Positions 627 through 39,276 of a DNA stretch of 41,708 nt are shown piece after piece; within the stretch, counting starts at the first letter, position 1; each line of letters begins with the position of its first letter. The notes below the pieces were generated by a model, which made no database searches, had not been told where the DNA came from, and saw only the letters and a program-made list of their open reading frames with translations. The stretch is taken from the NCBI GenBank assembly GCA_023231475.1, contig JALJEE010000026.1:1-41708 (forward strand). Direction: 5' to 3'. The DNA comes from Seison nebaliae (Eukaryota). The position numbers and the translations under genes were made by a program.

Positions 627-1396
627 ATGTATCATCTTAAAACTTGTAGAAATCTAGTTAAACAAATCGATTCTCATCTATTTAAGAGTATCAGAAGAAG
701 ACAAATTTCAAAAGATGTATCTTCTAATGATTGCATAAGTATTTCTGTGAAAGAGAAACCTTCACAAGATTATACTCTTATATACAGGTATTTATTAAAT
801 TTGTCCTGGAAATAAAAATTCACATTTTTTTCTTTAAGTTTATCTCATATGAGATGGCTGCGATTTATTACTCGCTTAAAATTATATCAAACTGGTATTA
901 TTACCTCATTCAGTATCTATTCATTTGGCATATATACCAATCGAATACCAATTGATTATACAATTGATAATAATGATCTTATTGGTTGTATGTTATGTGG
1001 ATTCACTTCATTTTTAATATTACATTGGATGAGTTATTTTCACAATTCACCTTTAAAGATTAACTTGACTTTCATTCAGGTAGAGAAATCAGGAAAATTG
1101 TTGGTAGAATTTATTGGAATGAGAAAGAGAATGTGTTGGACTTTCATCATCTAAGTTATTTAACCGGGAAACGACTTTCTACCAAAATTCCTCTGGATCA
1201 TCTGACCACTGGGAAGCATCATGATCGTTAATGAATTGTTATTTTTCTTCTACATAATTTCCATTTGTTTTTAGATGACTTATTTACTGTTATATGTCAT
1301 GAGAATAACAAGGATATCCAATTTTATATATCTCGACGCTTTGGCAAATTAGTAAAAGAAAATAAATTCAATGAAATTTTCAAACGAATTGTCTAA
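627..1396 (+). CDS. TMEM186: TMEM186-like mitochondrial membrane protein (complex I assembly factor family), ~207 aa, 4 exons: 627-787, 839-1032, 1080-1226, 1275-1396
   Basis: Spliced product reads ...YTLIYSLSHMRWLRFITRLKLYQTGII...LILHWMSREIRKIVGRIYWNEKENVLDFHHLSYLTGKR...QFYISRRFGKLVKENKFNEIFKRIV*. This is colinear with remembered TMEM186 motifs (SRLKLxQT, CWMSYFLRRLVGILYLNE, FYVTLRYGRIL). Three GT-AG introns of 51, 47 and 48 nt with compatible phases. Confidence 0.8.
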
Positions 1397-2292
1397 ATAA
1401 ATTTTTATAATTTCTCTCCAAGTATAAACTGTTAATAAAACGTTCGCGAATGAGTCTCCCAAAAACGAAGTTGAGATATTTTTATAAAAAAATCTTTTCC
1501 CATTAAAATTTAGAATAAGAATGACAACAATATAAACAGCTGCTATAATACGAATGATTGTTATTTGCAATAGAAAGTTCATATTATATATATAATAATG
1601 ACGGATGTTTATAATCATTTTAATAGAAATTTTAAGAGTAATAAAAGGATATTAGTAAAAGTCAGATTTGGAGTGAGATAAATGAAAATATAAATATGAA
1701 GAATAATAATATTAATAACGAGAAATAATTAGGTATGATAATTCCCTTTCAATAGTGTTGCTATTGATAAATATTATATAGAAAGAAAAAAAAACAAATA
1801 ATTTATTTCAGACATATTATATATCAATTTGACGTATATATGTTCCATTTATTGTTTATGTACGGATATATTATAATTGGATGAACTTTTGAAATAAGTG
1901 AATGAATTATTCTCTAATTCTCTCATTAATTTCTACTGTTATTGATTTTGTTGTATAAAATTATGATTTGACATATGTTGGCGATTAAATAGAATGAATG
2001 AATGATCATGAAAAACTAGTTAACATAAAAATGTTCATTTCTAGTTGTTATTATAATAAATGCATAAGAAAGAATGACAAGTGGGATTATATTGTCCGTT
2101 AGTGATCATTTTCCGGATACGAAGGAAGAATGACGTAAAATATCATGTAGAATATATGTGGGAAAGAATATTTACATGGAAATCATAGATTTGGATACTG
2201 TTTCAATTTATCATTTCCTCAAATTCGAATTCAGGTCGCCGTTGAAAATATGGAAAATGAAAGGAATGGAATAAAATATGATGGACATTCCC

Positions 2293-3457
2293 TTACGACT
2301 GATTGTTATTCGTACCAATAATTGATGACGAAACGGTATCGTTCAATACTAAATCGCTTTCCTGTTTAATATTGTTCATCATATCGCCGTTATGAATCAT
2401 CATATCATCCCCAACATTAGTCACTGTGTTGACGGTTGAATTGATCATCGAAGAAGTTGTCAATGTTGAGGACATATTCGGTGATGATTTCATCTTCAAA
2501 TTGCCAGCAGTGGATGTTGGTGATGTGGATGAAGAAACAGGACATGGTATTTTAGTGGCAGTGGGAGGAGTTGTATTATTTAATTCTTCTTTCACATCAT
2601 TTCGATGTTGATAGACATACTCCTCATGTAATTCACTGATAAATTTGTTTACAACTAAATCCGATGCTCTTTTTGCTTCTTCGTCACTAATCTCCTCCAA
2701 TTCTGCTTTCAACTTCAAATCTTTCTTCGCCTTCGTTCTTTCGTTCGGATGCATCTGTGAAACATGATCTCGTCCATGATCGGGCAAATTTAATGATTTA
2801 TGGTGGAAAAATGTTACACAGATTCGAGTCGGTTGAAATCGATTGGGCGTTGGGACCGAAGTTACGGCATGTGTCTCCCATTTGGAACACTTGATTAGAA
2901 TGGAACCATGCGGTAAGGCTATTCCTAAACCACCTGTCTGCGCATCTGCTAATACGGGACGACTTTCAATATATTTCTCTTCGATTAATGATTCAGTTGC
3001 GGACGCCAAATCAGCAGCACTTCTCATCGATCCACGTTTCTGCGTTTGAGTTTTAAAAACGGTAATGTCAGGAATCTGTTTTTGTTGGAGGACATTCTGA
3101 GTTATCGGTTTCGCTTCAATCATCGGTAATGTCAAATGATTTGAATTATTCTTCTGACAAACATGTCTCATCATTGGATTATTTTGCATGTGCATATTTG
3201 ATGCATTGGATGAAGATGTTCGATTAGCAACCGTTCTCTTCCTTTTCACTTTCTTCTCATCGTTTATATGTTGATTATTATTCATTAGTTGTTGATGCAA
3301 TTTTTGGTTTTGTTGCACTTGTTGCAATGAATGTTGTGATGAATGATGTTGATGCATTTGTGAATGAATATTCGGTGGTAAATTATTTTGAGACATGTTC
3401 GATTGCTGATGTTGGGAAGAATGGATATGTTGTTGTTGTTGTTGTTGTTGTGAATGA

Positions 3458-3491
<34 letters not shown>

Positions 3492-36539: not shown

Positions 36540-37295
36540 TCATTTTTTATATAATTCATCAATTAGCAACTGTTCGTAATTGATATGATTTATAGCGAAA
36601 TTGGAGATTTGCTTATTTCTTTGCTCAATTAAAGTTGACTTGGTATCCATTAACATCTCTTGCTTCCGTCTACCATTTTCCCATGAGATATATGTCGCAA
36701 GATCATTAACAGTCTCCAAAACAACTTCATTAACATTTCTCTCTCGTAATTCTTTCACAAAAGACTCATAAGGATTATTTGTCTTCATTGGTTCTCCTCG
36801 ATCCTTTTCAACTCGTTCATATAATCGACAATTCCATAAACTCACATGCTCGATATCCGACATCATCCTTATGCAATTATTCAAATGTTCCTTCTGCTGC
36901 TCATAAGGAAAAGCAATTTGTACATTTCCTACAGTTTGATTCACTTCAATGACATTCTCAGTTTGTGTCGACAAATTGTGGAAGCCTGAAATATATTTAT
37001 CATGAGCCAATGATGAAGCTAAAAATGTTTGGAGGAATTCAGTTTGAGTCATCGTCAGAAATCTTAAGAAATCACTTATATCAACATACACTAATTGGGT
37101 GGAATTGATGCATCTGGATTTTATTTGAAAAGGAATTCCCAAATTCAACTTTTCTGATTTTTCTAGCGAATTATCTTTGATATTTTCTGTAACGGTATTC
37201 AATATATTATTTGCTTTCTTTTTCAAACTATTTACCGTTTGGACAGAACGATAACTTTGTTTTTTGACCAGAGAAACAATTGATTGAAAATTCAT
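36540..37295 (-). CDS. Hypothetical protein, 251 aa, intronless, no recognised domain
   Basis: 756-nt ATG-initiated ORF in very AT-rich DNA (unlikely by chance) with complex amino-acid composition, head-to-head with the SPF45-like gene. Confidence 0.7.
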   Translation of the reverse strand: MNFQSIVSLVKKQSYRSVQTVNSLKKKANNILNTVTENIKDNSLEKSEKLNLGIPFQIKSRCINSTQLVYVDISDFLRFLTMTQTEFLQTFLASSLAHDKYISGFHNLSTQTENVIEVNQTVGNVQIAFPYEQQKEHLNNCIRMMSDIEHVSLWNCRLYERVEKDRGEPMKTNNPYESFVKELRERNVNEVVLETVNDLATYISWENGRRKQEMLMDTKSTLIEQRNKQISNFAINHINYEQLLIDELYKK

Positions 37296-37683
37296 TTGTT
37301 ATTTGTTAATAATGTGAATGTCTTTATTTTAAAGAATTGGTGATGACAAATGTTCACATCACATCAACTTCAATGAAGGAAAATAAATAAAAAATTTATA
37401 AAGAAGTCAAAGTTCATTCCATTCACCAAACAACATATTTTCATCCAATAAATAAATTAATAAAAAAATAATTGAAAGAGTTAAATTTGTTGATTATACT
37501 GGCTCAATGAATATAAATGAGTGATTAAATCTTGATTTTGTTTTTCAGCCAAAAATTTAATTTTTTTTATGAAAATTTCTAAATATTTTAACTATAAATA
37601 TTGTCAGAAAATAAATTTCAAATAATTAATAAACAATAGTGAGATTTTCTTGGAAATAAAAAATCCTTTGGAATATCGGAACT
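37296..37683. promoter_or_regulatory. Putative bidirectional promoter and 5' UTRs
   Basis: 388-bp very AT-rich gap between two divergent start codons; inferred from gene layout only. Confidence 0.45.
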
Positions 37684-39276
37684 ATGAGTTTATACGATGA
37701 TGACAATGAGATGATTGCTGATAAATGTGAATTGATGAATAGCACGAAGGTAGAAAAAGACATTAAGAATGAATCGCCAAAAACATTTCAACTCAATTCG
37801 GAACGTTTAAATTTGATGTCGAAACAAATTCAAATTCGTTCCAGGTTTCTATTCTTCTGCGATCAATTTTTGATTATTTTTTCAATTTTCATTCAAATAT
37901 TCCACAACATTTTGGCTGTTTAATCTTTTAATATTATTCTTATTGATTTGGAAAAACGATTTTTATTTTTTATATTATCATGTGTTGCGATTAATGAATG
38001 AAAATAGTTTACAAAAAAATCGAAAATCTTTAGGTCCCGAACCAATCAAACGACATTTTGTACCTCCACCTAAATCCACAAATATGCACAAAAAATTAAT
38101 AACAACAACAACAACTGTAACGTTCAATGAGAAATTGGAGAAAAGTTAAAATTTAATTTTAATTTTAAAATAATTAAAAACGAATGAAAATTTCCATTAT
38201 TATTTTAGAGAACAAAAATGATGAACTGAATGAAACGAATAATTTGACAGACATTTTCAACAACGATGAAGATGATGAACAATTTTTAAAAAAATTTCCC
38301 AAGAAAAATACGACAAATGCTGAGTCAACGTTTGGACAGTTGAAAACCAGTTCTATCATTCCTAAACAAGGACGTGCAGATGCTGATTTGTCAGTTTTCA
38401 ATAAAAAGGAAAAAGAATTGAAATTTAAACAAATTACAAAGAAAATGAAAGAAGATGAATTTGAAAATGATTTCAATGACACTTTTATGAATCCAGCTAT
38501 TCAAAAGAAGAATTGTTTTCTTTTTCATGTTTCCCAAATACCATTTCATTTGAATCATTTCGTAGATCGTTGCACATTTGGAATCGACGAATATGATCCG
38601 ATGTTTCCAAATTCTTACGAATTCCTCTCATTTGAACGTCGACGTCACATGATAGCTGGAGAATTTCGACTTCGGGTAAAAATAAAAGAACTGCAAATGA
38701 AATTGGAAGAAGGTTGTTTTGACAAAATTCTTATGAAATTATTTTACTATTCTTTCTCCCTAACGAGAGAGATATCATTTCACTTTTCTTTCTTATTCTC
38801 ATATTTATCTTGAATTGTTGTTTCATTGTCTATTTTCATGGAAATCTATCTAAATTCATCCAGCCAAAAATGAAGTGACTCAGTTGCCAACTAGTGAACA
38901 AAAAGGTAGATCTCAATTAAAGAAACTTCCGAGAAGAAGGAAATATTCAAATGATTCAGACAAATCATCCGAGTCTTCTATTAAATCATCACCGAAACAT
39001 AAGAGAAATGGAAAAGATTCATACAGGAAATCAAAAGGCAGCGGACAACAAGTGGCGAAAAAGCTTATGGAGAAAATGGGGTATGTCGATGGTCTCGGTC
39101 TAGGTAGAGATAATAAAGGCATTACCCAATCTTTACAAGTCAAAAAGAAGAGATCTAACATTGGAGTTGTAATTAATCCGGATAAAAGAAAATCGAAAAA
39201 CACAAATATTCAACCGAACAAACAACCAGTCTTACAATCAGCAATGTCACGTTACGTAGACGAGAAAGATGACTAA
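37684..39276 (+). CDS. RBM17: SPF45/RBM17-like G-patch splicing factor, ~387 aa, exons 37684-37844, 38008-38144, 38209-38514, 38566-38712, 38864-39276; UHM domain not found
   Basis: N-terminal MSLYDD, LNLMSKQIQ, the SF45 motif DEYDPMFPNSYE and the G-patch VAKKLMEKMGYVDGLGLGRDNKGITQSL. Four phase-consistent GT-AG introns. Confidence 0.82.

What the first reader, a model, noticed from the sequence alone, without database searches (positions are those of the whole stretch)
788..38863. Unusual splice code: tiny introns with GTT (+3 U) donors
Of 23 introns reconstructed from protein homology and phase, 21 begin GTT (e.g. GTTCAT, GTTTGT, GTTCGT, GTTAGT, GTTAAT, GTTTTA, GTTTCC, GTTTTT, GTTAAC, GTTAAA, GTTTCT, GTTGTT). 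Only two begin GTA, one being the longest intron (784 nt). Only 6 have +5 G, and the last exon base is often A. Twenty introns are 41-64 nt. Established: metazoan donors are GTRAGT, with the +3 purine pairing to U1 snRNA. Inference: this lineage may have an altered U1/U6 recognition sequence or define introns mainly by length.
Basis: partly seen in the sequence, partly recalled or inferred. Interest (0 to 1): 0.7.

Follow-up and report, generated by a model that had tools for sequence, protein, structure and literature searches.

The report
GTT-starting introns in an animal
In this stretch of invertebrate DNA, 21 of 23 predicted introns start with GTT instead of the GTA/GTG that most animal introns use, which likely means this animal's splicing machinery reads intron starts in an unusual way.

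Summary
I rebuilt the introns independently: 23 in six genes, 21 GTT and 2 GTA, 20 of them 43-64 nt. Sixteen junctions are fixed by reading frame or homology, and 14 of these start GTT. Even if all five open junctions are counted against the reading, 16 of 23 remain. +3 T exceeds unused GT sites in the same genes (144 of 361, p 9e-7) and intron T-richness (p 2e-4 for 21/23, 0.007 for 14/16). Several positions are old introns whose homologs appear to start GTA/GTG. The rest of the donor is weak and lies in the normal register (+6 G 0 of 23). No RNA run, genome or snRNA gene was available, so junctions are predicted and the mechanism is untested. Most likely an unchanged U1 tolerates +3 U (U-pseudouridine, U6 G44 wobble), with length and composition defining the introns. 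An Entamoeba-type rewritten U1 is the bold alternative (about 25%). Intron size itself is ordinary for spiralians. This scan noted GTT donors before in protists (Bonamia, foraminifera); my look-ups found no animal case.

The parts
627..1396 (+). Gene 1, 207 aa membrane protein, TMEM186-like (name recalled), 3 introns
   Evidence: no Pfam hit
788..838 (+). Intron 51 nt, donor GTATTT (alternative GTC donor; non-GTT either way)
1033..1079 (+). Intron 47 nt, donor GTTATT; only frame-compatible donor
1227..1274 (+). Intron 48 nt, donor GTTAAT; only frame-compatible donor
2293..6990 (-). Gene 2, TET dioxygenase, 1492 aa, 4 introns
   Evidence: Pfam Tet_JBP; homologs
6210..6259 (-). Intron 50 nt, donor GTTCAT; fixed by TET profile; position shared with homologs
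6007..6064 (-). Intron about 58 nt, donor GTTTGT; exact ends open but all alternative donors are GTT
5828..5880 (-). Intron 53 nt, donor GTTCGT; best under TET profile by 11 bits
5635..5692 (-). Intron 58 nt, donor GTTAGT; profile does not resolve it, but three homolog models break after the same residue
9671..13005 (-). Gene 3, GH18 chitinase-like protein, 987 aa, 7 introns
   Evidence: Pfam Glyco_hydro_18, PDB chitinases
12818..12871 (-). Predicted in-frame intron 54 nt, donor GTTAAT; only donor, but frame stays open if kept
12502..12547 (-). Intron 46 nt, donor GTTAAT; only donor; Pfam positions run on across it
12317..12377 (-). Intron 61 nt, donor GTTTTA; only donor
12114..12161 (-). Intron 48 nt, donor GTTTCC; Pfam fixes the acceptor, both donors left are GTT
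11949..12010 (-). Intron 62 nt, donor GTTTGC; only donor; Pfam positions run on across it
10658..10706 (-). Intron 49 nt, donor GTTTTT; unresolved (GTC alternative)
10463..10513 (-). Predicted in-frame intron 51 nt, donor GTTTAT; unresolved (GTA alternative; frame open if kept)
13650..14100 (-). Gene 4, neuropeptide precursor, 135 aa, 1 intron (pedal-peptide likeness recalled)
   Evidence: Atlas leads only, 0.82-0.85
13989..14031 (-). Intron 43 nt, donor GTTAAC; unresolved (GTG alternative)
15306..17766 (-). Gene 5, RBM24/38, 504 aa, 4 introns
17415..17477 (-). Intron 63 nt, donor GTTTGT; best under RBM24/38 profile by 12 bits
17337..17391 (-). Intron 55 nt, donor GTTAAA; best by 39 bits; position shared with homologs
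16414..17197 (-). Intron 784 nt, donor GTACAT; only donor within 30 nt
16018..16061 (-). Intron 44 nt, donor GTTAGT; only donor
37684..39276 (+). Gene 6, G-patch protein, 387 aa, 4 introns (SPF45/RBM17 likeness recalled, not confirmed by a call)
   Evidence: Pfam G-patch
37845..38007 (+). Intron 163 nt, donor GTTTCT; unresolved (GTC alternative)
38145..38208 (+). Intron 64 nt, donor GTTAAA; unresolved (GTA alternative)
38515..38565 (+). Predicted in-frame intron 51 nt, donor GTTTTC; only donor, but frame stays open if kept
38713..38863 (+). Intron 151 nt, donor GTTGTT; all alternative donors are GTT

Best explanation
Most predicted introns in this invertebrate window begin GTT, and they are likely ordinary major-spliceosome introns whose start is read in the normal register by a probably unchanged U1 snRNA that tolerates U at +3. 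Inferred steps: +3 U would sit on U1 pseudouridine 6 as a U-pseudouridine pair and later on U6 G44 as a G-U wobble. The A-rich exon end would pair with U5 loop 1, and the U-rich first ten bases could recruit a TIA-1/Nam8-type helper. Because the donor carries little other information, the narrow 43-64 nt length and the U-rich, G-poor interior would do much of the work of marking the intron (intron definition). Old introns were kept in place and their donors appear to have changed from GTR to GTT in this lineage.
For: Shown: 21 of 23 GTT, 14 of 16 among fixed junctions. Among GTT sites only, the 21 used donors match the canonical U1 end better than 144 unused GTT sites in the normal register (AUC 0.79, p 8e-6) and not clearly in the +1 register (AUC 0.61, p 0.06); -3 C, -2 A, -1 A, +4 A, +6 T, +8 T, +9 T are enriched. 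+5 G 6 of 23 against 6% G in interiors (p 0.002). +6..+9 are 63 of 92 T against 213 of 460 at +10..+29. Old positions: at the first TET intron, 11 of 12 informative homolog read-throughs imply +3 A or G (inferred from protein ends); 78 of 120 RBM24/38 hits leave the family at the GYGF-V junction. Papers (passages only): U-pseudouridine contributes to donor use (shown there for +4, named as potential for +3) and human GUUUGG donors use the canonical register (PMC4856993); +3 faces U6 G44 and A/G pair with it weakly (PMC11732430); most lineages with atypical donors keep canonical U1 (10.1101/2022.06.08.495308; PMC13326754).
Against: Tolerance alone does not explain why U beats A at +3, since A would pair better with an unchanged U1. 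+3 is the most fixed position after GT (21 of 23) while +5 G is mostly lost; a U1 rewritten at nucleotide 6 predicts exactly this. Both GTA donors have -1 G against 5 of 21 GTT donors (n too small). The +6/+8/+9 T enrichment may just be intron T-richness, because the unused sites are mostly exonic. Duplex energies separate used from unused sites poorly for every U1 form tried (AUC 0.53-0.61). No junction is confirmed by RNA, no splicing factor or snRNA of this organism was seen, and n is 23 from one window.
Confidence: 0.5

Rival explanations
1. Co-evolved U1: the main U1 snRNA, or a major variant, has A instead of U at nucleotide 6, so GUU is the Watson-Crick match, as in Entamoeba.
For: +3 keeps its rank as the most fixed position after GT but has flipped to U; no GTC or GTG among 23 against 143 of 361 unused sites (p 2e-5); a U6-to-A U1 end separates used from unused GT sites better than the canonical end (AUC 0.83 against 0.74, circular in +3); both GTA donors have -1 G. 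Precedent: Entamoeba and Mastigamoeba.
Against: Base rate: no compensation in Saccharomycotina (about 70 species), Giardia, Trichomonas, Micromonas, Thecamonas or Fritillaria. Entamoeba donors are strict (88-90% GUUUGU); here GTTTGT is 2 of 23. GTT is not avoided inside introns (36 of 63 GT) while GTA is rare there (4 of 63, p 0.005, post hoc), which would fit GTA still being a strong donor.
Confidence: 0.25
2. No special reading: +3 has simply lost its purine constraint and follows the U-rich 5' end of these introns; with sampling luck, the genome-wide share is nearer 50-70% than 90%.
For: T after GT is already 0.55-0.57 inside introns and 0.68 at +6..+9; against 0.68, 14/16 gives p 0.07, and the worst case 16/23 gives p 0.12 against 0.55. 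The 95% interval for 14/16 is 0.64-0.97.
Against: 21/23 exceeds even 0.68 (p 0.01), 19 of 20 short introns are GTT (p 1e-4 at 0.55), and +4 and +5 next door are only 10 and 6 of 23 T. Loss of the +3 purine would itself be unusual against about 16% GUU in C. elegans.
Confidence: 0.17
3. Shifted or bulged U1 register: the motif has slid one base, so +3 U pairs with U1 A7, as noted by this scan for some protists.
For: GTTAA starts 6 of 21 GTT donors; -1 G is rare (7 of 23).
Against: +6 G is 0 of 23; 5 of the 6 +5 G donors go on with T in the normal register; the +1 register separates used from unused GTT sites only weakly (p 0.06).
Confidence: 0.05
4. Artefact of junction placement without RNA.
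For: No RNA junction; 5 junctions have non-GTT alternatives, and 4 in-frame segments could be kept as coding; the TET profile alone does not resolve 5692.
Against: Seven introns have a single frame-compatible GT/GC donor within 30 nt and break the frame if kept: 6 GTT, 1 GTA. Profiles from 96 TET and 31 RBM24/38 homologs pick GTT donors by 11-39 bits at four more. A scan of ten exon stretches for hidden in-frame 42-69 nt introns found none above score 4, a cut-off that 5 of the 20 known short introns also miss.
Confidence: 0.03

Closest known systems
Entamoeba transformed donors GUUUGU(U) with co-evolved U1 (Roy and Bowser, bioRxiv 10.1101/2022.06.08.495308; passages read)
   Same: +3 U dominates; short AT-rich introns; U-rich tail after the donor.
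   Different: Entamoeba is intron-poor with strict donors (88-90% GUUUGU) and +4 U; here an intron-rich animal with degenerate donors (+4 T 10, A 9; +5 G 6 of 23), and U1 is unseen.
GUU-starting minority of C. elegans introns (about 16%; PMC8865678, passages read)
   Same: Animal, modal intron about 47 nt, GUU donors spliced by the major spliceosome.
   Different: Minority there, apparent majority here (21/23 against 0.16: p 3e-15). That paper gives 16% for human too; I recall a much lower human figure.
Fritillaria borealis non-canonical introns (PMC13326754, passages read)
   Same: An animal whose splice sites changed widely.
   Different: There the terminal dinucleotides change and the U1 5' end is kept; here GT-AG is kept and only +3 flips.
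Human non-canonical U1 registers and U-pseudouridine pairs (Tan et al. 2016, PMC4856993, passages read)
   Same: Gives a chemical route for an unchanged U1 to accept U in the middle of the donor.
   Different: A small minority of human sites; shown for +4, only proposed for +3.
Short introns of compact or intron-rich spiralians (Capitella median 57 bp, Dimorphilus 66 bp; 10.1101/2020.05.07.078311, passages read)
   Same: Intron size.
   Different: The passages on splicing say nothing about donor sequence.

Membership tests
U2-type (major) spliceosomal introns | GT...AG termini interrupting a reading frame | tested here: met
   23 of 23; six full frames after removal
U2-type (major) spliceosomal introns | Pyrimidine-rich 3' end with YAG | tested here: met
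   -3 is T or C in 20 of 23; T-rich upstream
U2-type (major) spliceosomal introns | Donor consensus with purine at +3 (GTRAGT) | tested here: not met
   2 of 23; this is the variant feature, not a ground to leave the class
U2-type (major) spliceosomal introns | Removal seen in RNA | not testable with these tools
   No RNA holder listed; laid runs are DNA contigs
U12-type (minor) introns | Donor RTATCC and branch point CCTTAAC (consensus in PMC3033335) | tested here: not met
   No donor or 3' region fits
Entamoeba-type transformed donor system | +3 U as the majority base | tested here: met
   21 of 23; 14 of 16 fixed junctions
Entamoeba-type transformed donor system | Strict GUUUGU consensus (about 90%) | tested here: not met
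   GTTTGT 2 of 23
Entamoeba-type transformed donor system | U1 snRNA with compensatory pairing site | not testable with these tools
   No genome held; no Rfam match in window
Shifted (+1) register donors | G at +6, motif displaced by one base | tested here: not met
   +6 G 0 of 23; register test

The most novel reading that the evidence does not exclude
This is an animal whose U1 snRNA pairing site has been rewritten (U to A at nucleotide 6), so that GUU has replaced GUR as the standard intron start genome-wide: the Entamoeba solution, evolved in an intron-rich metazoan.
Probability: 0.25. Interest if true: 0.8.

Novelty: new variant of a known kind. Interest (0 to 1): 0.52.

Why it matters
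The +3 purine is a core rule of animal 5' splice sites. An intron-rich animal in which most donors carry U there would be a natural test of an open question: does U1 pairing, or do U5/U6 pairing and proteins, set donor sequence, and can the U1 5' end co-evolve with thousands of introns? One look at the U1 genes and a genome-wide donor logo would decide it. Gene finders trained on GTRAG would also mis-annotate such a genome.

Tried and rejected
No RNA holder listed for window 10000-19900; X1, X2, X5 behave as genomic contigs and X6, X7 laid nothing, so junctions, expression and the long-intron donor class stay open. No whole genome and no Rfam match in the window: U1, U6, U1C, LUC7, METTL16, SNRNP27K, TIA-1 not examined. 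The metagenome scan gave no close relative: L001 is an intronless, GC-rich TET used only as a reference, L002 a fragment. The 251-aa ORF at 36540-37298 had no hit among longer proteins; near-length proteins were not searched. Canonical GGTAAG motifs are not clearly in excess (11 against 6.0 expected, 6 of 100 shuffles reach it), so a canonical long-intron class is not shown. No fixed branch-point motif. Shifted register and U12 type rejected (see membership). The TET profile did not resolve intron 5692, and non-GTT alternatives scored up to 5 bits higher. After removing the 54-nt chitinase segment about 8 extra residues remain against a PDB chitinase. SPF45 identity of gene 6 was not confirmed by PDB or Atlas. 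The ten paper searches that ran listed no title or abstract start on an animal with mostly GTT donors; the library lacks most subscription papers, donor logos are figures that are not held, one cross-species paper was not held, and I opened no supplements, where such logos would lie.
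Full report
Setting. The window is 31% G+C, CpG observed/expected 1.14. No whole genome is held. It encodes animal genes: TET, a GH18 chitinase-like protein, RBM24/38, a cadherin-like ORF and a G-patch protein, a neuropeptide precursor (leads only) and a LINE-type element at the right end. Named top TET hits are mostly bivalves and a gastropod at 43-46% identity, beside a fish and a beetle (7 of the 10 proteins looked up carry a name), so a lophotrochozoan invertebrate is likely but not shown. 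The runs that hold the DNA have 62-94 million letters of contigs, which suggests a small genome (inference).

Observation. From six-frame views I located 23 introns in six genes: 21 GTT and 2 GTA. Twenty are 43-64 nt, the rest 151, 163 and 784 nt. Removing them gives six open frames from ATG to stop. Donor columns: -1 A 11, G 7; +3 T 21; +4 T 10, A 9; +5 A 9, G 6, T 6; +6 T 16, G 0; +8 T 18. The long DNA contigs listed over the gene regions mostly show no other letters.

Are the junctions forced? I listed every GT/GC-AG pair within 30 nt of each junction that keeps the whole frame. Seven introns have a single possible donor and break the frame if kept (6 GTT, 1 GTA). At two more, all alternative donors are GTT. 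Profiles from 31 of 120 RBM24/38 hits and 96 of 150 TET hits (those spanning the region) pick the GTT donor at 17477, 17391, 6259 and 5880 by 12, 39, 35 and 11 bits over the next choice. Pfam positions run on across the chitinase junctions at 12547 and 12010 and fix the acceptor at 12114, leaving only GTT donors there. At 5692 the profile is undecided and non-GTT choices score up to 5 bits higher, but 3 of the 13 aberrant homolog rows break right after the same residue, which supports the GTT site. The intron at 788 is GTA or GTC. That gives 14 GTT of 16 fixed junctions (13 of 15 without 5692). Two further in-frame segments have only a GTT donor but could be coding, and five junctions remain open. 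The worst case is 16 of 23.

Chance. T follows GT at 0.40-0.47 in the window and 0.55-0.57 inside these introns. 21/23 gives p 2e-4 at 0.55, 14/16 gives 0.007, 16/23 gives 0.12; against the 0.68 T of +6..+9 the values are 0.01, 0.07 and 0.54. Against 361 unused GT sites in the same genes (144 GTT) p is 9e-7. Against about 16% GUU in C. elegans (PMC8865678, passages) even the worst case gives 1e-8. So a majority of GTT donors is solid for this window. Active preference for U over a merely free position is likely but less certain.

History. At the first TET intron, 14 homolog rows leave the family at the same place. Of the 12 informative ones (two dropped: one ends a residue early, one is a spliced variant), 6 end there, 4 go on with Tyr and 1 with Trp, all implying +3 A or G, and 1 goes on with Leu, implying GTT (inferred from protein ends, DNA not seen). 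78 of 120 RBM24/38 hits leave the family at the GYGF-V junction. These are old intron positions, so the donors changed in place; they are not a family of new mobile introns.

Register and mechanism. G at +6 is absent. Among GTT sites only, used donors fit the canonical U1 end in the normal register (AUC 0.79, p 8e-6) and only weakly in the +1 register (0.61, p 0.06), so this is not the shifted class that the scan noted in protists. Tan et al. 2016 (PMC4856993, passages) show U-pseudouridine pairs and canonical-register use of GUUUGG donors. Parker et al. 2025 (PMC11732430, passages) place +3 opposite U6 G44, where A or G pair weakly; U would wobble there (my inference). Roy and Bowser (10.1101/2022.06.08.495308, passages) found compensatory U1 in Entamoeba and Mastigamoeba but not in yeasts, Giardia, Trichomonas, Micromonas or Thecamonas, and Fritillaria keeps its U1 end (PMC13326754, passages). 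I therefore favour an unchanged U1 with +3 U tolerated, and favoured by later or helper contacts, inside length-defined introns (0.5). A changed U1 (0.25) explains more simply why +3 stays the most fixed position and why no GTC or GTG occurs, but GTT is not avoided inside introns while GTA is (36 and 4 of 63, post hoc). I also read passages of PMC3033335 and PMC10158995; these passages give no +3 frequencies.

Novelty. Intron size is ordinary for spiralians (57 and 66 bp medians, 10.1101/2020.05.07.078311, passages). Majority +3 U is in print for Entamoeba, and this scan noted it in Bonamia (unchecked notes). Ten paper searches and three animal-worded look-ups of earlier findings showed no animal case, but logos in figures and supplements were out of reach. 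I recall, from no call, that some AT-rich invertebrates have a sizeable GTT minority, so this may be the far end of a trend.

Verdict. A real, reproducible sequence pattern in one window, with junctions predicted but mostly forced and the mechanism untested. New variant of a known kind; interest 0.52.

Noticed in passing
window 37684-39276 (+): The G-patch gene has a YDP-x-x-PN-x-YE motif before the G-patch, which I recall from the short-intron splicing factor SPF45/RBM17, but the frame stops after the G-patch with no UHM domain seen; the open stretches downstream look non-coding and single contigs span the region. Identity not confirmed.
   Followed up: partly
window 32181 (-), 36167 (-), 36279 (-), 29722 (+), 32985 (+), 28351 (+): Near-perfect canonical donor motifs lie in the region without identified genes; 32181 follows an acceptor-like site about 140 nt upstream, perhaps a non-coding exon with a long intron. 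Not in clear excess over shuffles.
   Followed up: partly
intron interiors, all 23: GTA is rare inside introns: 4 of 63 GT sites against 0.19 expected (p 0.005, post hoc).
   Followed up: partly
window 2293-6990 (-): TET has its catalytic domain split by a very long Gln/His-rich insert and starts only about 110 residues before the Cys-rich region; the window has no CpG depletion (o/e 1.14).
   Followed up: no
window 9671-13005 (-): The chitinase-like protein has DGMDMDLK at the catalytic motif, with Lys where active GH18 enzymes have Glu (recalled), so it is probably inactive; a roughly 400-residue Thr/Ser-rich insert splits the domain.
   Followed up: no
window 19374-23666 (-): A 1430-codon open frame with signal-like start, weak cadherin match and one membrane stretch, apparently without introns in an otherwise intron-rich window.
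   Followed up: no
window 36540-37298 (-): Single-exon 251-aa ORF with no Pfam hit and no hit among longer proteins.
   Followed up: partly
window 40150-41708 (+): 5' part of a multi-copy LINE-type element (ORF1-like frame, then endonuclease); depth 6-10 times single copy.
   Followed up: no
window 190-380 and about 39600-39900: Short multi-copy repeats with raised depth at the left end and before the LINE, possibly a small DNA element.
   Followed up: no
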